The translations under genes and the position numbers were made by a program. DNA of 64,000 nt from Terriglobia bacterium. Its GTDB lineage: Bacteria; Acidobacteriota; Terriglobia; JAIQFV01. Numbering within the stretch: the first letter of the stretch is position 1; each line of letters opens with the position of its first letter. The stretch is taken from contig JAQUPQ010000015.1 of NCBI GenBank assembly GCA_028716525.1, forward strand, positions 1,237-65,236. The letters are read 5' to 3'. Under the pieces are notes generated by a model. It had not been told where the DNA came from and did not search any database. It saw nothing but the letters and a program-made list of their open reading frames with translations. Shown here piece by piece: positions 8,802 to 63,269 of the stretch.

Positions 8802-8878
8802 TGGTCGGGGCGATCCGATTTGAACGGACGACCACTCGCACCCCAAGCGAGTGCGCTACCAGGCTGCGCCACGCCCCG
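8802..8878 (-). tRNA. tRNA-Pro (anticodon GGG)
   Basis: Reverse complement folds as a cloverleaf: acceptor CGGGGCG/CGCCCCG, D-arm GCGCAGCCTGGTAGCGC, anticodon stem CTCGC/GCGAG with loop TTGGGGT, T-arm GGTTCAAATCC, 3' CCA encoded. Confidence 0.85.
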
Positions 8879-8905
8879 ACATTCCGGTTTCGTCAACTCC
8901 TGCTT

Positions 8906-8984
<79 letters not shown>

Positions 8985-32042: not shown

Positions 32043-33599
32043 ATGAAAAGACAGGTTTTTCGCATTGCATGCCTTGGCATTTGTTGGTTTATTCTTATGA
32101 GTCTTGTGCTCCATGCCCAGACTCCTTGTGTTGTCAATGGATTCAACAATGCTCGTGTCGATGGGGGATACAGCATCATTGATGGGAGTGTTTATACTAA
32201 CCTCCGCAGCAAGCTTTCAAATCCGACCTTTTTCAGTTTTGCGTCAGGAGCCGCTCCCTTTCCCATCCAGTTGCAATCGGGCTTATCGACGGTGGGTTCC
32301 TCCTCGCTCCAGCCGGGAAATCCGACTGTGTTTGTAACCGGCTGGACCGCCACGTCAAGCTATACCCCGACCGAGAAAACGAATATTCTTAATGCGGTGA
32401 TGAACGGGGTCAGCATTATTGTCCAAGCAGACGATATCAACCACAGCATTGTTGATCTCTTTGGCCTGACCCAAGTGAATAGCGGCACGGGGGGAGGAAG
32501 CACCAATCAAGAGATCGCGGATTACGATAACCCCGTCATGAATGGCCCCTTCGGCCGAGTGGGTCTGTTGATACCGGCCGGGTTTGTGGGTCAGTTCTCG
32601 GGTGTTCCCGGGAATGCCACCCTTCTGGCGCGTAATATCGGTGGATCAACTGGCGGAAACACGGCAGCCGTAGTCATATTTCGAGAGAACGCCCTCGGGC
32701 CAACCTCTGGACGTGTGGTGATTTTGAACGACTCGGATTATGCCGGTAATTCTGAGGCTACCAGCCCCAACGGCAACGACGCGACCGTCATGTTCCTCAA
32801 TGCCTTGGCCTTTGCCTGCTTCATTCCCGATGCCCCTGGCGGTGCCAATTACAATACCTACTACTTCCCGCAAATCGCATTCAACGGCGGTTTCAGCACT
32901 GTCGAACAGTCTTCCAACGGCACTACTGGAAACACGATCGCCAATATTCAGTTCACCAATTTTGATGACAACGGAAGCTCCATTGGGTCATGCTCGTTTT
33001 CCACTGAACCGGGCAGTGGGACCAACAGCTGTGTTACCAACGGGACTTTATCCTCCCCGATTAAGACCGGCTGGGCGTGGATTCGCTCCGACGACCTGCA
33101 TGCGTTTTTTGCCCAGGAGAAGTTCATTCAGTCGGACGGATCCGGAAATCCCATTACTGCAGTGGGTGTTCCGCCGGCACAACTAGGACGGGCGTTCACA
33201 CTGGTCGGATTCTTGGGCCCCTTGGACGACATTGGAATTGCCTTTCTGGCCCTTCCTACAGATCCCGCAACCGCTCACATCCAGGTGATGGCATTCAACT
33301 CTGGTGGAAGCCAGGTGGGGAGCACCGGTAGCATCAATTTGCCACCGGGTACGCACACGGCCGCATTCATTGATGGAATCGTGAGTGTCAATCGGAACAC
33401 CCTCACCCCCACAAATCTGTCGGTGGTCATCACGAGCGACCAACAACTGGCCATCACCGGTTTGGCTTCCAATGATCCGGGCTTCAAACTGAGTGGAATC
33501 CCCACGTTGCCGGGCCGGCTAATTACGCTGTTTGCCGTAACTAAAAATGCAACGGGAAGAGCTTCCAGGTCAGTAGAGTCTGGCCGGTCGAGCCATTAG
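32043..33599 (+). CDS. Secreted hypothetical protein, paralog B of the tandem pair (unknown function)
   Basis: Signal peptide (MKRQVFRIACLGICWFILMSLVLHAQT). Collinear similarity to 30016..31461, plus an extra about 40-aa C-terminal tail. Confidence 0.7.
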   Translation: MKRQVFRIACLGICWFILMSLVLHAQTPCVVNGFNNARVDGGYSIIDGSVYTNLRSKLSNPTFFSFASGAAPFPIQLQSGLSTVGSSSLQPGNPTVFVTGWTATSSYTPTEKTNILNAVMNGVSIIVQADDINHSIVDLFGLTQVNSGTGGGSTNQEIADYDNPVMNGPFGRVGLLIPAGFVGQFSGVPGNATLLARNIGGSTGGNTAAVVIFRENALGPTSGRVVILNDSDYAGNSEATSPNGNDATVMFLNALAFACFIPDAPGGANYNTYYFPQIAFNGGFSTVEQSSNGTTGNTIANIQFTNFDDNGSSIGSCSFSTEPGSGTNSCVTNGTLSSPIKTGWAWIRSDDLHAFFAQEKFIQSDGSGNPITAVGVPPAQLGRAFTLVGFLGPLDDIGIAFLALPTDPATAHIQVMAFNSGGSQVGSTGSINLPPGTHTAAFIDGIVSVNRNTLTPTNLSVVITSDQQLAITGLASNDPGFKLSGIPTLPGRLITLFAVTKNATGRASRSVESGRSSH

Positions 33600-33605
33600 A
33601 AAACC

Positions 33606-33699
33606 AGGGACAGACACCGGCGGCTCAACACATTGGAAAGAGTAAAGCCTGAGGTGTCTGTCCCTATCTTCGGGATGCTTCAAGAAAGGAAGCATCCCG
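33606..33699 (+). terminator. Two consecutive strong hairpins downstream of paralog B (terminator-like, no T-run)
   Basis: 13-bp perfect stem AGGGACAGACACC...GGTGTCTGTCCCT with a 34-nt loop, immediately followed by an 11-bp stem CGGGATGCTTC/GAAGCATCCCG. Confidence 0.45.
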
Positions 33700-34692: not shown

Positions 34693-35628
34693 TTGATGAA
34701 AGACGAATTGGAAGAAATCCGAAAAGCCATTCTTGCCGGAGAAGCTGAGGGGAATGTTCGCCGCACGCCTACCGGCTCCACTCCCCTGCCTTCCAAAGAA
34801 ATTCTCGGCGTCATCCTGGAGGCGCTCGAGGCCCTGATTTATCCCGGCTACTTTGGAGAATATTCCACTCATCCGGGTGATAGAAGCGAACGCGCGGGCC
34901 GTCTCGTCGAGGCGATTTTTGAAAAACTGCACGAGCAGGTGTACTTAAGCTTCCGGCATTTTTGCGAGAGCCCGAGCTCACCGTGCCCTCACTGCCAGGA
35001 AGCGGCGAAAACCAACACGCTGGATTTTTTGAGGAAGATTCCGGCGCTGCGGGGAATGTTGCGCGCGGATGTTGAAGCCGCCTTGGATGGCGACCCGGCC
35101 GCCAAGAGCACCGACGAAATCATTTTCAGCTACCCCGGCATGTACGCCGTCACCGTCTACCGGCTGGCGCATGAGCTGGAGCTTCAGCGGGTGCCCATCA
35201 TTCCGCGTATTCTGACCGAAATCGCCCACTCCCGAACCGGAATCGACATCCACCCCGGCGCCCGCATCGGACGACGCTTCTTCATCGATCACGGCACGGG
35301 CGTGGTCATCGGCGAAACGACGATCATCGGCGATCGCGTCCGCCTCTACCAGGGCGTGACACTCGGCGCGGTTAATTTTCCCAGAGATACCCAGGGACGC
35401 CTCATCCGCGGTACCAAACGACATCCCACGGTAGAAGACGATTGCATCATCTACGCTAATGCCACCGTCCTGGGTGGTGAAACCGTGGTGGGGCACGGCT
35501 CCATCATCGGATCCAACGTTCGCTTGATGGAAAGCGTTCCACCCGGTTCGAAGGTCATGGCCGAGCCGGCCCGCCATACCATCACCACGCGACGGACTAC
35601 GCCGAATGCACCTTCCAAGAAACGCTGA
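34693..35628 (+). CDS. cysE: Serine O-acetyltransferase (long form with N-terminal helical extension)
   Basis: Left-handed beta-helix hexapeptide repeats: IDIHPGARIGRRFFIDHGTGVVIGETTIIGDRVRLYQGVTLG. Confidence 0.8.
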   Translation: MMKDELEEIRKAILAGEAEGNVRRTPTGSTPLPSKEILGVILEALEALIYPGYFGEYSTHPGDRSERAGRLVEAIFEKLHEQVYLSFRHFCESPSSPCPHCQEAAKTNTLDFLRKIPALRGMLRADVEAALDGDPAAKSTDEIIFSYPGMYAVTVYRLAHELELQRVPIIPRILTEIAHSRTGIDIHPGARIGRRFFIDHGTGVVIGETTIIGDRVRLYQGVTLGAVNFPRDTQGRLIRGTKRHPTVEDDCIIYANATVLGGETVVGHGSIIGSNVRLMESVPPGSKVMAEPARHTITTRRTTPNAPSKKR

Positions 35629-35671
35629 GTATCATAGGTGCCGGGTGTCGGGTGTCAGGGGTATGAGAAGA

Positions 35672-35934
35672 GCAGTCAGCCGTCAGCTTTCAGCCGTCAG
35701 CTTTCAGCTACAAGCCATAAGCCTAAAGCAAACAGGAATTAGCCGGAAGCCCCAAGCTTTAAGCCCTAAGCGTTCAATGCGGATCCGAAAACAAGAATAT
35801 CTTTTGGACGAGACTTCATCGATAAGCCATTCTTCTCGACCGATGACAGGTTTTTGAATATTGAGTTTCTTGTTTGCTTACAGCTTAAGGCTTGTAGCTG
35901 AAAGCTGACGGCTGAAAGCTGACAGCTGACGGCT
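35672..35934. repeat. Heptad-periodic repeat array forming an about 40-bp imperfect inverted repeat around a 170-bp spacer
   Basis: 35674-35771 consists of 14 consecutive heptamers NNN(C/A)AGC (cgtcagc tttcagc cgtcagc tttcagc tacaagc cataagc ...). 35889-35934 carries the reverse-complement heptamers (gctgaaa gctgacg gctgaaa gctgaca gctgacg). Left arm 35681-35716 is the exact reverse complement of 35889-35924. Confidence 0.8.
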
Positions 35935-36298
35935 GATACGGATGTTCCGCAGAATCGAGATCGGTGAACGCCGTCAGCGCGCCCAAAGCTTCATTGAAAA
36001 GTACCGGCAGGCCCACAGCGTCTTTAAAATCTTGATAGAAATCATTGATGTGTTCCAGCATGTCGGCAAGTGCAGGAATTTCCACGGAGTCGTCGCTTAA
36101 AAATTTCTGGAACCCACGGTCCAAGAGTCGGAAGATTTTCCCTTTCCGCACCAATCCCGCAGACCTGAAAATCTCAACACGCCCGGCGTTGGCCCGGAAA
36201 AGAATGGCGCAGCCTTGGCGTTCGGCTCTGTACCAGCCCGCCGGGTCTGGCGACGATATCTCAAAGCCAAAAGCTTTAAGGTTTTGAATCGGATCCAT
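35885..36298 (-). CDS. Hypothetical protein (C-terminal about 15 aa encoded by the heptad repeat arm)
   Basis: 137-aa ORF with no recognised motif. Its last codons (…SAVSFQPSAFSYKP) are a translation of the inverted-repeat arm, so the true stop or length is uncertain. Confidence 0.35.
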   Translation of the reverse strand: MDPIQNLKAFGFEISSPDPAGWYRAERQGCAILFRANAGRVEIFRSAGLVRKGKIFRLLDRGFQKFLSDDSVEIPALADMLEHINDFYQDFKDAVGLPVLFNEALGALTAFTDLDSAEHPYQPSAVSFQPSAFSYKP

Positions 36299-36755
36299 AG
36301 TCGGTCGATCCTGTCTTGAAGACGCCTCTTCCAGCCGCCGTCAAGTTCTCGCATGCAATATAAGTTTTCAAGATACCACAAGAGAACAACCAACGCCACC
36401 CTCGGCGATCCTGATTGCACTGAGCCTGAAAATTTTGAATCGGAACCACCATGTCTTCCTTATACATCTAACTCTCTCCACAAAGACCTGTGAATTCAGA
36501 CCGTTTTTATGCGACAATTACACCGGAGGCTTGAAGGCGGTTCGCAGCAAAGGATCGCTGAATTGGATTCTTTTTGGGGGGCTTGACCGCAGGAAAAGTT
36601 TCGGCTTCTTTTTTGCCATCATAAATGGTATTTAGCTTCGTCTTTTTGTCTTATTCGCACTTCAACGCCCTTCCTGCCCTCAGTGCCCCAAGCCATCCCG
36701 GAATGAACGGCGAACGCATCCGCCAGCACCCCTCCGCTCCTCATTTGAGGACATC

Positions 36756-58733: not shown

Positions 58734-59013
58734 GAAAACCCTCCAATGAAATCCTGGTTTTTGATCATTCTATTGGATGTTGAAAAGTATAAAAGAAGTT
58801 GGCTCGGGAAGAACGGGTGTCGGGTGTCAGGTGTCGGGCCGTCAGGTCCGCCCACTTTTTGGCAGATGCCCGGGATGAGGTGTGAGACACCACCTTGCCC
58901 CCAACCGCGCCTTTGCCGTAAACTTCGTATATCGATTGATTTAATAAAGAGCCGCGGCCCCGGCTTCCCAAGATGGAAGCGAGGGGCCATTTGCATTCGA
59001 AGGATTTGAAACC

Positions 59014-60345
59014 ATGAACCTCAAATCTCGCGTTGTCGCCGCCACCCTCGGGCTCGTGTTCCTTGCCGCTTATGTGGTTTTATCTTGCCGCTCGCGCTCC
59101 ATGGGCGGCGAAAATTCATCCGGTGACTTAAGAATATTTCACGACTATCGCACCGAAAAACCCGGACAGACTTACAAGATTACAGTCGCCGATCTTCCCC
59201 GACCTTATACCACGCACTCCGTAGACAACGGTCCGCGCCTTATCCGGCGTCCCGCCGATGCCTGGCCGCAAGCGCCTGCAGGTTTCAAAGTGGATCAATA
59301 CGCCGCGGGACTCGACAATCCCCGTCTTCTTCGCACCGCGCCCAACGGCGATGTGTTTCTGGCCGAGAGCCGGCCGGGGCGCATCAAAATTTTTCGGGGA
59401 GTCGACAAGAACGGTCAAGCCCAAACGGTCAGCGTTTTTGCGTCCGGATTGGATCTGCCCTTCGGAATCGCTTTTTATCCGCCCGGGCCCAACCCGAAAT
59501 ATGTTTATGTGGGTAACACCGGGTCGGTGGTTCGATTTCCTTATGAAAACGGTGACTTGAAAGCGCGCGGCCCGGCAGAAACTATCGCGGAGATTCCCAG
59601 CGGCGGACACCTTCGCGGCGGTGGACACTGGACCCGCGATCTGGCTTTTTCTCTTGATGGCCAACACCTTTTCATTTCCGTCGGCTCGCACTCCAACGTC
59701 GATGACACCGACGGCAATCCTCGCGAACACAATCGCGCCGACATTCTCGAAGCCAATCCCGACGGAACAGGGCTCCACGTCTACGCCTGGGGAATTCGCA
59801 ACGCCGTCGGCATTGCCGTTCATCCCCGCAGCGGCGAACTGTGGGCTTCAGTGAACGAACGCGACGAACTCGGCGACAATCTTCCCCCCGATTACATCAC
59901 GCACATTCAGGAAGGCGGTTTCTACGGCTGGCCGTGGTTTTACATCGGCGACCACCAGGATCCCCGCCACGCCGGCAAACATCCCGAACTAAGAAACAAC
60001 GTCATCGTGCCGGATGTGCTCCTCCAACCGCATTACGCTTCACTGGAATTAGCTTTTTATGAAGGCAGCGGCGCCTCGGCATTTCCAAAAGAATATTCCG
60101 GCGAAATCTTCGCGGCCGAACACGGGTCTTGGAACCGCGCTCTTCGGACTGGTTATGAAGTCATCCGGGTTCCATTGAAAGACAGACACGCCACGGGCGA
60201 GTATCAGGATTTCCTGACGGGCTTTGTGACACCCCAAGGCGAAGTGTGGGGTCGTCCGGTGGGCGTGGCCGTTGCGCCCGACGGATCGCTCTTGATCAGC
60301 GACGACGGATCGGAATCCATCTGGCGAGTGAGCTATACGAGATAG
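59014..60345 (+). CDS. PQQ-dependent sugar (glucose/sorbosone) dehydrogenase-family beta-propeller protein
   Basis: Signal/TM N-terminus. Conserved SGDH-family blocks (LDNPRLLRTAPNGDVFLAE...GRI, GWPWFYIGDHQDP, GSLLISDDG). Confidence 0.75.
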   Translation: MNLKSRVVAATLGLVFLAAYVVLSCRSRSMGGENSSGDLRIFHDYRTEKPGQTYKITVADLPRPYTTHSVDNGPRLIRRPADAWPQAPAGFKVDQYAAGLDNPRLLRTAPNGDVFLAESRPGRIKIFRGVDKNGQAQTVSVFASGLDLPFGIAFYPPGPNPKYVYVGNTGSVVRFPYENGDLKARGPAETIAEIPSGGHLRGGGHWTRDLAFSLDGQHLFISVGSHSNVDDTDGNPREHNRADILEANPDGTGLHVYAWGIRNAVGIAVHPRSGELWASVNERDELGDNLPPDYITHIQEGGFYGWPWFYIGDHQDPRHAGKHPELRNNVIVPDVLLQPHYASLELAFYEGSGASAFPKEYSGEIFAAEHGSWNRALRTGYEVIRVPLKDRHATGEYQDFLTGFVTPQGEVWGRPVGVAVAPDGSLLISDDGSESIWRVSYTR

Positions 60346-62438: not shown

Positions 62439-62855
62439 TCAATTCTGCCTTGTTGTTGACGAGGGCGTGCGGGTGATCAGCGCCACACCCACACAGATGC
62501 ACACGACGCCCGTCCAGCGCAGAGCCGTTACCGATTCGCCCAGCCACCAGCGGCTGAAAATCGCCAGCAGGACATAGTTCAGTGCCGACGCCGGCATCAC
62601 AAAACTGAAGTCGGCCCACGAGAGAATCACCATGAAAGAAATCAGAAAAAGAAGCAGGCCGGCAATCCCCAGCCAGATCCAGCCGTTCGTAAAGACTTTT
62701 ATGAAGAGCAGGCCCAGCGCCGCCGGCGTCCACTCGTGGACATCACCAATCTGCCGCATGCCCATGCCCAGCAAGACATTGCCGATCGCCGAGAAAAAAA
62801 TGATCGGAACCAGAATGGTGTAGGTTTTCAACTGCAAGTTTTGTGGCTGAGACAT
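62439..62855 (-). CDS. Half-size DMT-superfamily (EamA/SMR-like, 4-TMS) transporter subunit
   Basis: Four TM helices. The 40 N-terminal codons of the ORF as given are a translation of the upstream tandem repeat, so start trimmed to MSQPQNL. Confidence 0.55.
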   Translation of the reverse strand: MSQPQNLQLKTYTILVPIIFFSAIGNVLLGMGMRQIGDVHEWTPAALGLLFIKVFTNGWIWLGIAGLLLFLISFMVILSWADFSFVMPASALNYVLLAIFSRWWLGESVTALRWTGVVCICVGVALITRTPSSTTRQN

Positions 62856-62874
62856 AAGAAGAAAAGAGGTCCGT

Positions 62875-62971
62875 GGGTGGCGCAGGCACGCGTTCGTGGC
62901 ATGTCTGCGGTGTGTCAGATAGGCGGGTGGCGCAGACATGCGCTCGTGGCATGTCTGCGGGATCTCAGACA
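62875..62971. repeat. Two-copy 50-bp tandem direct repeat immediately upstream of the DMT/glycosyltransferase operon
   Basis: GGGTGGCGCAGGCACGCGTTCGTGGCATGTCTGCGGTGTGTCAGATA (62875-62921) and GGGTGGCGCAGACATGCGCTCGTGGCATGTCTGCGGGATCTCAGACA (62925-62971), about 85% identical, 20-115 bp upstream of the predicted start. Confidence 0.75.
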
Positions 62972-63269
62972 CCTTCCTTTACTTGATCCCTACCTGTCGA
63001 ATCATCCTCAGTCCCCCCGATTCCTCGGGGCGCCACCCAACAGCTATTCTAACCCGAGTCACGCCAACGAGAAATCAAAGCTCGGTAGCGCCGGCAAGTT
63101 CTTGAGCCGGCGAAAAACAACAGCCGCCGCCTTAAAGAACAGGCGGCGCTACCAAAACCGGTCATCATAAGCACCGGCTCGATGTTGAACCTGATCTCTT
63201 GAATAATGTAGACTCTCATCTTGAAGGTGCCCTGCAACAAGGAGGCACAAACCTTCCGGGAGGCCTACC

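What the first reader, a model, noticed from the sequence alone, without database searches (positions are those of the whole stretch)
35637..35940. Heptanucleotide-periodic repeat array forming a large inverted repeat between convergent genes
Fourteen consecutive 7-nt units NNN(C/A)AGC occupy 35674-35771. About 170 bp downstream their reverse complements (GCTGAAA GCTGACG ...) recur. This gives an about 40-bp near-perfect inverted repeat (35681-35716 vs 35889-35924) that could form a very long stem or cruciform. The array is preceded by a GGGTGTC GGGTGTC AGG heptamer block. Both predicted ORFs that cross it (35606..35857 plus, and the C-terminus of 35885..36298 minus) are just translations of the repeat. 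This is not CRISPR-like (period 7, no spacers). It could be a bidirectional terminator, a MITE, or a recombination or phase-variation substrate.
Basis: seen in the sequence. Interest (0 to 1): 0.55.

Follow-up and report, generated by a model that had tools for sequence, protein, structure and literature searches.

The report
Heptamer-repeat palindrome between convergent genes
Two mirror-image arrays of 7-base repeats sit between the ends of two facing genes in a soil Acidobacteria genome and can fold into a roughly 68-base-pair hairpin; this is a new example of the "heptanucleotide repeat" arrays known from cyanobacteria and Xanthomonas, and most likely a 3'-end RNA hairpin rather than a mobile element or a switch.

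Summary
Window 35636-35775 is a phased array of 20 heptamers. Its units 6-15 (35671-35738) are copied in inverse orientation at 35867-35934: 68 nt, 61/68 complementary, 128 nt apart. It is the largest inverted repeat in the window, and the RNA folds at -139/-144 kcal/mol (z -9.6/-11.3).

The genome is a Terriglobia (Acidobacteriota) MAG. The element lies between a serine O-acetyltransferase (EpsC-type, +) and a conserved 137-aa hypothetical gene (-). That gene is real; only its last 16 codons are repeat-derived.

I found no sibling copies, no target-site duplication and no Rfam match, so it is not a MITE, REP or CRISPR. It is also not a canonical intrinsic terminator, because it has no U-tract.

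Relatives carry inverted heptamer arrays at the same site but with other units (TCAGA, TCCAAA). The closest relatives carry none.

(nnTCAGC)n...(GCTGAnn)n pairs recur in many phyla, especially Acidobacteriota. They are mostly intergenic, rarely between divergent genes, and almost always in one polarity (45:4).

Best reading: an STRR-like heptanucleotide array palindrome made by slippage plus inverted duplication, probably acting as a two-way 3'-end RNA hairpin. The function is inferred. It is a new member of a known kind and of moderate interest.

The parts
34693..35628 (+). Upstream convergent gene: serine O-acetyltransferase, EpsC/CysE type (311 aa), stop at 35626-35628
   Evidence: NCBIfam NF041874 EpsC scores 159.3 bits against a cutoff of 150, and Pfam finds Hexapep. 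The gene is syntenic in L001, L004, L125, L128, L131 and L132.
35636..35670 (+). G-rich lead-in of the phased array: AGGTGCC GGGTGTC GGGTGTC AGGGGTA TGAGAAG
   Evidence: It sits in the same 7-nt phase as the AGC units. TRF reports period 7. The same GGGTGTC GGGTGTC block recurs at 58815.
35671..35738 (+). Left arm: ten heptamers (nnTCAGC grading into nnnAAGC), sense-oriented for the + strand gene
   Evidence: Inverted repeat I1, 68 nt, 90% complementary. The units match the right arm one for one.
35739..35775 (+). Five further degenerate heptamers (AGCCGGA AGCCCCA AGCTTTA AGCCCTA AGCGTTC) that have no partner in the right arm
   Evidence: AGC recurs at lag 7 up to 35771.
35776..35866 (.). Non-periodic centre (the loop of the hairpin)
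   Evidence: It has no other copy in the window or in about 250 loci. It shows no significant similarity to the orthologous spacers.
35867..35934 (-). Right arm: inverted copy of the left arm (GCTGAnn on the + strand, nnTCAGC on the - strand)
   Evidence: TRF reports period 7/14/21 over 35896-35936.
35885..36298 (-). Downstream convergent gene: conserved hypothetical protein (137 aa, NCBI PHX83_07935). Codons for YQPSAVSFQPSAFSYKP plus the stop (35885-35938) lie inside the right arm.
   Evidence: Ten homologues align up to about residue 120 and then diverge in the tail.
35606..35857 (+). Spurious ORF (83 aa) produced by the stop-free frames of the TCAGC-sense array
   Evidence: It has no Pfam match. 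It overlaps the 3' end of the EpsC gene. nnTCAGC units cannot encode a stop codon in any sense frame, which follows directly from the sequence.

Best explanation
This is a lineage-specific palindromic pair of heterogeneous heptanucleotide repeat arrays. It belongs to the same kind of sequence as cyanobacterial STRR arrays and the heptameric long simple-sequence repeats of Xanthomonas.

Origin (inferred): a 7-nt unit (nnTCAGC) was amplified by replication slippage just downstream of a gene. A ten-unit block was then duplicated in inverse orientation, or the two arms are kept alike by conversion between them. The result fills the 3' intergenic space between two convergent genes and overwrites the last codons of one of them.

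Function (inferred, not shown): a transcript from either gene contains first the G-poor (nnUCAGC)n arm and then, 128 nt later, its complement, so it can form a hairpin of about 68 bp. By analogy with REP/BIME and STRR hairpins, such a hairpin would act as a two-way 3'-end barrier. It would limit read-through into the opposing gene and/or protect the mRNA 3' end from exonucleases.
For: Shown:
- Twenty phased heptamers and a 68-nt, 90% inverted copy, far beyond chance.
- The arms match unit for unit, including the degenerate inner units, so they are copies of one array rather than independent expansions.
- The RNA hairpin has z -9.6 and -11.3 on the two strands.
- The site lies between the convergent EpsC-type and hypothetical genes, and this synteny is conserved.
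- No sibling copies were found and no Rfam family matches.
- The orthologous site in relatives carries other inverted heptamer arrays that also fold into long hairpins: L004 with TCAGA (z -3.8), L125 with TCCAAA (z -9.5), L128 with TCCAAA (z -7.9).
- The TCCAAA arrays are retained across a clade whose flanking protein is only 73-88% identical, while their units turn over.
- Class level: heterogeneous (nnTCAGC)n arrays were found in two independent samples of 120 loci each. In the genome sample, 30 of the 120 loci are Acidobacteriota.
- Position 3 of the unit is T in 73% of units, while positions 1-2 vary.
- By intergenic context the arrays split into 20 convergent, 42 tandem and 6 divergent, which fits 3'-end elements.
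- Canonical hairpin-plus-T terminators are not enriched in this genome region (25 found against 21.2 in shuffles), so other 3'-end structures are plausible.

From the literature:
- Heptamers are the most over-represented long SSRs in bacteria, and slippage has been proposed as the cause (PMC4679880, PMC4692102).
- Heterogeneous (GGGANTN)n arrays in Xanthomonas occur as inverted pairs between convergent genes (PMC4692102).
- STRR 7-bp arrays form intergenic hairpins that have been suggested to stabilise transcripts (PMC2670836).
- REP325 acts as both a terminator and an mRNA stabiliser (bioRxiv 10.64898/2026.03.23.713779).
Against: - There are no expression data, so termination or stabilisation is pure inference.
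- No U-tract follows either arm, and the 128-nt loop is unlike any characterised intrinsic terminator.
- The two closest relatives (L003, flanking protein 77% identical; L001, 69%) have no array at this site, so the array is dispensable there.
- Only one TCAGC site exists in 64 kb of this genome, so it is not the general terminator of the organism.
- In most other members of the class the variable dinucleotides of the two arms do not pair. Perfect stem pairing is therefore not what is conserved.
- The strong polarity of the pairs (45:4) is not predicted by 'any hairpin will do'.
Confidence: 0.55

Rival explanations
1. It is a neutral by-product. Heptamer slippage plus a template-switch inverted duplication produced junk DNA that is tolerated because it lies in a 3' intergenic region. 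It has no function.
For: - The closest relatives lack it, and the unit sequence is not conserved at the orthologous site.
- Arrays often begin within 1-6 nt of stop codons, as if they expand until coding constraint stops them.
- The repeat overwrote a non-conserved protein tail without apparent harm.
- Slippage-driven over-representation of heptamers is the published default (PMC4679880, PMC4692102).
Against: - Variation within arrays is confined to 2 of the 7 positions, with TCAGC kept across phyla. Uniform decay of a perfect repeat would not do that.
- Paired arrays have one polarity, 45:4, in two independent samples.
- Arrays are depleted between divergent genes (6 of 68).
- The TCCAAA arrays persist at this site across species whose flanking protein is 73-88% identical.
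Confidence: 0.25
2. It is a periodic binding array. The conserved TCAGC (UCAGC) pentamer at 7-nt spacing would be read by an unknown single-strand nucleic-acid-binding factor on the nascent transcript, such as Rho or a cold-shock-like or other OB-fold protein. The hairpin would then be secondary, for example limiting the binding window.
For: - The 5-nt core is conserved and the dinucleotide is free, across many phyla.
- In most members the arms pair only through the core.
- The G-poor arm is always transcribed first from either side (45:4). The same holds for the TCAGA and TCCAAA arrays at the orthologous site.
- CspB binds one heptamer per protein (cited in PMC4679880).
Against: - No candidate protein has been identified and no co-occurrence has been tested.
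- The unit sequence differs completely between relatives at the same site (TCAGC, TCAGA, TCCAAA). A sequence-specific reader would not tolerate that unless it co-evolves.
- Single arrays show no significant orientation relative to the upstream gene (15:10).
Confidence: 0.12
3. [quoted passage not shown]
For: - It has long terminal inverted repeats and a size of about 264 nt.
- It is absent from the closest orthologous loci.
- It replaces the native stop codon.
Against: - There is no second copy of the arms or centre in the window, in about 250 loci or in JGI metagenomes.
- No target-site duplication is present at the arm ends.
- The arms are simple heptamer arrays, and other class members differ in every variable position rather than being copies of a master element.
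- No transposase gene lies next to it.
Confidence: 0.04
4. It is a contingency (phase-variation) or recombination locus. Changes in unit number would shift the frame of the hypothetical protein's C-terminus, or the palindrome would drive rearrangements.
For: - A 7-nt unit is not a multiple of 3, and the tract overlaps the last 16 codons.
- Arrays differ in unit number and order between the species behind L125 and L128.
Against: - Only the non-conserved tail beyond the conserved domain is affected.
- The array regions are identical between L125 and L126, and between L128 and L129/L130.
- The units are heterogeneous, which lowers slippage rates (general knowledge of SSR mutability).
Confidence: 0.04

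Closest known systems
Cyanobacterial STRR (short tandemly repeated repetitive) heptanucleotide sequences
   Same: Both are tandem 7-bp units, intergenic, dispersed in many copies, and able to form hairpins when arrays face each other. In both cases the function is unknown, with transcript stabilisation suggested (PMC2670836, PMC4692102).
   Different: The unit sequence differs (nnTCAGC here; CCCCAGT, TTGGTCA and CAACAGT from memory of Mazel et al. 1990). The host phylum is Acidobacteriota. Here the two arms are 68-nt unit-for-unit copies, and the class shows a strict arm polarity that has not been reported for STRR.
Heterogeneous heptameric SSRs of Xanthomonas and Nostoc, (GGGANTN)n / GGGGA(C/T)T (Rehm et al. 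2015, PMC4692102)
   Same: Both are heterogeneous heptamers with conserved core positions and free positions. Both are intergenic, vary in length and sequence between related species, and sometimes form inverted pairs between convergent genes.
   Different: Those repeats are G-rich and studied as G-quadruplex formers. The TCAGC units cannot form G4. Only the GGGTGTC lead-in (35643-35659) resembles them.
REP/BIME elements of enterobacteria and pseudomonads
   Same: Both are extragenic palindromes at gene 3' ends, between tandem and convergent genes. REPs have been shown to act as partial terminators and mRNA stabilisers (bioRxiv 10.64898/2026.03.23.713779). The likely mode of action is therefore the same.
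   Different: REPs are 20-40 bp units with 5-13 bp stems, carry GTAG or CGTC tags, are high-copy near-identical families, and are mobilised by RAYT transposases (PMC3733652). None of these features is present here.
TAACTGA heptamer direct repeats of Beggiatoaceae, cyanobacteria and Bacteroidetes (PMC4679880)
   Same: Both are intergenic heptamer arrays with a patchy distribution across phyla. The reverse complement TCAGTTA shares the TCAG core. One orientation has stop codons in all frames and the other is open.
   Different: Those repeats are mostly homogeneous, lie directly upstream of start codons and are proposed to be translational regulators. Only one inverted case was reported.
Bidirectional intrinsic terminators between convergent genes
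   Same: The position is the same, and a single hairpin can be used by both transcripts.
   Different: Canonical examples have short GC-rich stems, loops of 3-8 nt, and flanking A- and U-tracts. Here the stem is 68 bp, the loop is 128 nt and there is no U-tract.

Membership tests
Heptanucleotide long SSR / STRR-like arrays | Head-to-tail tandem units of exactly 7 nt | tested here: met
   There are 20 phased units over 35636-35775 and 9-10 over 35867-35934. TRF reports period 7/14/21. Other lags give nothing.
Heptanucleotide long SSR / STRR-like arrays | Predominantly intergenic location | tested here: met
   The element lies between the stop at 35628 and the conserved end of the minus-strand gene at about 35940. 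Only a non-conserved 16-codon tail overlaps it.
Heptanucleotide long SSR / STRR-like arrays | Many dispersed arrays of the same unit family per genome | tested here: inconclusive
   The 64-kb window has only one TCAGC site and two GGGTGTC sites. Related Acidobacteriota loci show 2.3 extra sites per 100 kb, against 0 in shuffles.
Heptanucleotide long SSR / STRR-like arrays | Length and sequence variation between related genomes at the same site | tested here: met
   Relatives carry TCAGC, TCAGA, TCCAAA or no array at the orthologous site. L125 and L128 share the outer units but differ inside.
STRR sensu stricto (cyanobacteria) | STRR1-3 unit sequences in heterocystous cyanobacteria | tested here: not met
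   The units are nnTCAGC / nnnAAGC and the host is a Terriglobia MAG. The unit sequences of STRR1-3 are recalled from memory.
REP/BIME | A 20-40 bp palindromic unit with a 5-13 bp stem and a GTAG or CGTC tag, in a high-copy near-identical family | tested here: not met
   The arms are 68 nt and heptamer-periodic, and there is a single copy in the window. The REP definition is taken from PMC3733652.
REP/BIME | Associated RAYT (Y1) transposase in the genome | not tested
   The window's ORFs were not all screened, and the rest of the genome is unavailable.
MITE | Terminal inverted repeats | tested here: met
   There is a 68-nt inverted repeat at both ends of a 264-nt unit.
MITE | Target-site duplication flanking the TIRs | tested here: not met
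   The flanks...TGAGAAG| and |ATACGGA..., share no direct repeat.
MITE | Multiple near-identical copies | tested here: not met
   No other copy of the centre or of the arm-specific core was found in the window, in about 250 loci or in JGI metagenomes. The remainder of the source genome was not searched.
Canonical intrinsic (Rho-independent) terminator | A short GC-rich stem with a 3-8 nt loop, followed by a U-tract | tested here: not met
   The consensus scan finds none at 35630-35940. The arms are followed by AUACGGAUG on the + strand and CUCUUCUCAUACCCC on the - strand.
CRISPR array | Repeats of 24-48 nt separated by unique spacers of similar length | tested here: not met
   The period is 7 and there are no spacers.
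Phase-variable contingency locus | The repeat tract lies in a promoter or ORF, so that unit number switches expression, with polymorphism between close strains | tested here: inconclusive
   The tract touches only the variable tail. No close strain of this genome is available. The arrays of relatives are identical between near-identical assemblies.

The most novel reading that the evidence does not exclude
The (nnTCAGC)n ... (GCTGAnn)n pairs are not accidental slippage products. They would be a widespread, transcription-oriented 3'-UTR device of soil bacteria, with Acidobacteriota foremost. A conserved pentamer at 7-nt spacing, always presented G-poor arm first to RNA polymerase coming from either side, would be read by an as yet unknown factor that sets mRNA 3' ends. 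That factor could be a termination, processing or protection factor, possibly Rho loading on the UC-periodic arm before the complement is made. The recurrence of such pairs with different units at the same convergent site, and the 45:4 polarity, would be signatures of that function.
Probability: 0.15. Interest if true: 0.7.

Novelty: new member of a known kind. Interest (0 to 1): 0.4.

Why it matters
How transcripts end in Acidobacteria and other abundant soil phyla is poorly known, and canonical hairpin-plus-U terminators are not enriched here. If these heptamer palindromes set 3' ends, they would be an easily recognisable marker of transcription-unit boundaries in thousands of uncultured genomes. 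They would also be a fast-evolving knob on the expression of convergent gene pairs.

There is a practical side as well. Such arrays create spurious ORFs and repeat-encoded protein tails: the 83-aa ORF here, and the tails of the 137-148-aa proteins here and in relatives. They also often sit at contig ends in MAGs, so annotators and assemblers benefit from recognising them.

The polarity rule (45:4) is a simple, testable regularity that current 'slippage' explanations of heptamer over-representation do not predict.

Tried and rejected
- Rfam at gathering threshold over the whole window, at E<=10 over 35300-36400, and at gathering threshold over 18 class loci. Nothing matched at the arrays. The best hits were sub-threshold chance matches (mir-879, ssnA); an Acido-Lenti-1 hit in L070 is unrelated.
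- Exact look-up of the 137-aa protein in the assembly index: not on record. The source was identified through the homology search instead.
- Metagenome scan for the arm-specific 21-mer GTCAGCTTTCAGCTACAAGCC: 0 hits.
- Homology between the 128-nt centre and the orthologous spacers: not significant. The best result was z about 3 for an 11-mer shared with L003, so whether the loop is ancestral spacer is undecided.
- Using G-U asymmetry at the 7 arm mismatches to tell which strand's RNA matters: 2 favour the - strand, 1 favours the + strand and 4 favour neither, so it is uninformative.
- Orientation of single, unpaired arrays relative to the upstream stop codon: 7:3 in one sample and 8:7 in the other, not significant. 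The test is also confounded because GCTGA arrays themselves supply TGA stops.
- Assembly artefact (inverted chimera): rejected. The arms are 90% rather than 100% identical, the flanking synteny is the conserved one, and similar pairs occur in long-read MAGs.
- DNA cruciform in vivo: considered unlikely because of the 128-nt spacer. This rests on general knowledge and was not computed.
- Literature search for heptanucleotide repeats in Acidobacteria: no paper in the held library. One malformed search failed.
Full report
**1. What is in the sequence**

The region between the stop codon of a + strand gene (35626-35628) and the conserved end of a - strand gene (about 35940) is filled almost entirely by 7-nt periodic sequence.

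Read in one phase, 35636-35775 is: AGGTGCC GGGTGTC GGGTGTC AGGGGTA TGAGAAG AGCAGTC AGCCGTC AGCTTTC AGCCGTC AGCTTTC AGCTACA AGCCATA AGCCTAA AGCAAAC AGGAATT AGCCGGA AGCCCCA AGCTTTA AGCCCTA AGCGTTC. That is 20 units.

The reverse complement of 35867-35934 reads: AGCCGTC AGCTGTC AGCTTTC AGCCGTC AGCTTTC AGCTACA AGCCTTA AGCTGTA AGCAAAC AAGAAAC. This matches units 6-15 of the left array one for one, including the degenerate inner units.

The repeat finder reports arms 35671-35738 and 35867-35934: 68 nt, 90% complementary, 128 nt apart.

Several controls show this is not chance:
- The CAGC-N3 triple motif occurs 10 times, all here, against 0.32 expected.
- Trinucleotide runs at lag 7 cluster here (8 of 10, including runs of up to 9 units), are nearly absent at lags 5, 6 and 8-11, and occur 0.23 times per shuffled window.
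- It is the largest inverted repeat in the 64 kb.
- As RNA the region folds into one long stem on either strand: -139.4 kcal/mol (z -9.6) and -144.0 kcal/mol (z -11.3).

**2. Genomic setting**

The best protein hit identifies the source as a Terriglobia/Acidobacteriia MAG (locus tag PHX83_07935).

The + strand gene 34693-35628 is a serine O-acetyltransferase of the EpsC type (NF041874, above cutoff).

The - strand ORF 35885-36298 is a real gene. Ten homologues at 52-75% identity align up to about residue 120 and then diverge in length and sequence. In the window its last 16 codons (YQPSAVSFQPSAFSYKP) and its stop lie inside the right arm. The array has therefore replaced the native tail and stop codon.

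The + ORF 35606-35857 has no family match and overlaps the EpsC stop. It exists only because nnTCAGC units cannot encode a stop codon in any sense frame. The possible codons are nnT, CAG, Cnn, TCA, GCn, nTC and AGC. The GCTGAnn orientation, by contrast, supplies TGA in all three frames within 21 nt.

**3. What it is not**

- Known RNA family: no Rfam family matches, even at E<=10 or on 18 related loci.
- CRISPR: the period is 7 and there are no spacers.
- Canonical intrinsic terminator: there is no U-tract after either arm and the loop is 128 nt. The consensus terminator scan is also not enriched in this part of the genome (25 found against 21.2 in shuffles).
- REP: those are 20-40 bp tagged units in high-copy families (PMC3733652).
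- MITE: the 128-nt centre and the arm-specific core have no second copy in the window, in about 250 fetched loci or in the JGI metagenome collection. The ends carry no target-site duplication.
- Assembly chimera: the arms are 90% rather than 100% identical, the flanking synteny is the conserved one, and similar pairs occur in long-read MAGs.

**4. The orthologous site in relatives**

The gene order (histidine kinase, hypothetical gene, convergent EpsC-type gene, PHP) is conserved. The spacer between the convergent pair varies as follows:

| Locus | Flanking protein | Spacer content |
|---|---|---|
| L001 | P0002 | no periodicity |
| L003 | P0003 | no periodicity |
| L131 | P0006 | no periodicity |
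| L132 | P0004 | no periodicity |
| L004 | P0005 | (nnTCAGA)n ... (TCTGAnn)n, starting directly at both stop codons |
| L125/L126 | P0007 | (nTCCAAA)n ... (TTTGGAn)n, again encoding the hypothetical protein's tail (NSKIQTPNSK) |
| L128/L129 | P0009 | (nTCCAAA)n ... (TTTGGAn)n |

These arrays also fold into long hairpins, with z -3.8 (L004), -9.5 (L125) and -7.9 (L128).

Within each 6-8 kb locus this is the only period-7 site.

The TCCAAA arrays are kept across a clade whose flanking protein is only 73-88% identical, with the outer units conserved and the inner ones replaced.

The window's nearest relative (P0003, 77% in the identity matrix) has no array, and neither does L004's nearest relative (P0002, 74%).

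So the architecture recurs at this site while the sequence does not. That fits either repeated origin or in-place turnover of a maintained structure.

**5. The wider class**

Thirty of those loci are Acidobacteriota. From memory that is several-fold above their share of species; I did not compute the base rate.

About half the hits are perfect heptamer microsatellites, often at contig ends. The other half are heterogeneous arrays. In 59 heterogeneous arrays the free position next to the core is T in 73% of units (within-array majority 85%), while the other two free positions vary (majority 61% and 53%). This gives the consensus nnTCAGC across phyla.

About 40% of heterogeneous arrays have an inverted partner within 300 nt. 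In most of these pairs only the cores are complementary, not the dinucleotides. The window's pair, with 87% identity at the free positions, is unusually young or unusually well homogenised.

With a rough ORF caller, the intergenic contexts are 20 convergent, 42 tandem and 6 divergent over the two samples. Arrays often start 1-12 nt after a stop codon.

Extra sites occur at 2.3 per 100 kb in Acidobacteriota loci, 0.8 in other phyla and 0 in shuffles.

The most striking regularity is polarity. Pairs are arranged 5'-(nnTCAGC)n ... (GCTGAnn)n-3', which reads the same on both strands, 24 times against 3 for the opposite order in the genome sample. In the independent metagenome sample the count is 21 against 1 (binomial p about 1e-5). 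The window and the TCAGA and TCCAAA arrays of relatives follow the same rule, with the G-poor arm first. I have no tested explanation for this.

**6. Comparison with what is known**

- Heptamers are the most over-represented long simple-sequence repeats in bacteria, and slippage linked to the polymerase footprint has been proposed as the cause (Mrazek et al. 2007, as summarised in PMC4679880 and PMC4692102).
- Cyanobacterial STRR arrays are 7-bp repeats that form intergenic hairpins, with a suggested role in transcript stability (PMC2670836).
- Xanthomonas has heterogeneous (GGGANTN)n arrays that vary between related species and sometimes form inverted pairs between convergent genes (PMC4692102).
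- Beggiatoaceae, cyanobacteria and Bacteroidetes share TAACTGA arrays (PMC4679880).
- REP elements, a different family, have recently been shown to act as combined partial terminators and mRNA stabilisers in 3' UTRs (bioRxiv 10.64898/2026.03.23.713779).

I found no description of heptamer arrays in Acidobacteria in the held library.

The present element meets the defining features of heptanucleotide SSR arrays: tandem 7-nt units, intergenic position and variation between species. It fails those of STRR sensu stricto, REP, MITE, CRISPR and canonical terminators (see the membership table).

**7. Most likely mechanism**

Shown: this is a phased heptamer array with an inverted unit-for-unit copy. 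It has very strong hairpin potential on both strands. It sits at the 3' ends of a convergent pair and is specific to this lineage.

Inferred: the array arose by slippage amplification and then inverted duplication or arm-to-arm conversion. Each gene's transcript, once it passes the distal arm, would form a hairpin of about 68 bp. That hairpin would hinder read-through into the opposing gene and/or block 3' exonucleases, working like REP or STRR hairpins.

I put about 0.55 on this combined statement. Identity as an STRR-like array palindrome is about 0.85. An RNA 3'-end function is about 0.4.

The rivals are:
- a functionless slippage by-product (0.25);
- a periodic binding array for an unknown single-strand-binding factor (0.12), which the polarity and core conservation hint at;
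- a MITE (0.04);
- a contingency or recombination locus (0.04).

**8. Verdict**

This is a real, well-defined feature and a new member of a known kind. The window instance alone is ordinary for that kind, apart from its size and near-perfect arms.

The class-level regularities met along the way are modestly surprising and cheaply testable. These are the cross-phylum nnTCAGC core, the 45:4 polarity, and the recurrence at one convergent site with different units. Interest 0.4.

Noticed in passing
window 58814-58847: A second G-rich heptamer block (CGGGTGT CGGGTGT CAGGTGT CGGGCCGT CAGG) shares an 18-nt exact match with 35642-35659. It lies about 170 nt upstream of the + strand gene that starts at 59014. 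It has four G3 runs, so G-quadruplex potential is conceivable.
   Followed up: partly
Class loci L005-L124 and L135-L254 (e.g. L016:220-425, L071:5727-5831, L081:6293-6367): Paired heterogeneous heptamer arrays almost always have the order (nnTCAGC)n ... (GCTGAnn)n rather than the reverse. The counts are 24:3 and 21:1 in two independent samples. This is unexplained.
   Followed up: partly
L006, L008, L040, L048, L053, L065, L074, L112 and others (contig ends): Many perfect heptamer microsatellites (GCTGAGT, GCTGAGG, CCAGCAT and others) sit exactly at contig ends of MAGs from many phyla. This suggests such arrays commonly break short-read assemblies.
   Followed up: no
L125:3460-3640 (GCA_041490505 / JGI Ga0534150): Inside the TCCAAA palindrome there are three copies of a short REP-like hairpin TCCGCC-NNN(N)-GGCGGA, one in the left arm and two in the right. 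They are absent from the related L128.
   Followed up: no
L003:908-1160: The closest relative's spacer has no heptamers but contains another imperfect palindrome (CGCGCCAAGACGCAAAG ... CTTTGCCACTTGGCGCC). So this convergent spacer seems prone to carrying hairpins of various kinds.
   Followed up: no
window 62875-62969: There is a 50-nt tandem duplication (1.9 copies, 86% match). Each copy contains a GCGCAGACATGC...GCATGTCTGCG hairpin, and it lies at or just past the end of ORF 62439-62972.
   Followed up: no
window 33606-33665: A 29-nt-arm imperfect hairpin (AGGGACAGACACC ... GGTGTCTGTCCCT) lies 7 nt after the stop of gene 32043-33599. It is another non-canonical 3'-end hairpin and contains the GGTGTC motif.
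   Followed up: no
window 8805-8982 (- strand): There are two adjacent tRNA genes (Rfam tRNA, 58.5 and 65.8 bits).
   Followed up: no
L004:4578-5447: In GCA_036704725 the EpsC-type gene seems to be mis-called as two + strand ORFs of 126 and 154 aa. The - strand translation next to the array ends KVMAEPTRHTIMPRTSAEKKAAVKKR*, matching the window's EpsC C-terminus.
   Followed up: partly
L070:53-98: An Acido-Lenti-1 sRNA (Rfam RF01687, 46.8 bits) lies in a Deltaproteobacteria MAG contig. It is unrelated to the heptamer pair at 2277-2413 of the same locus.
   Followed up: no
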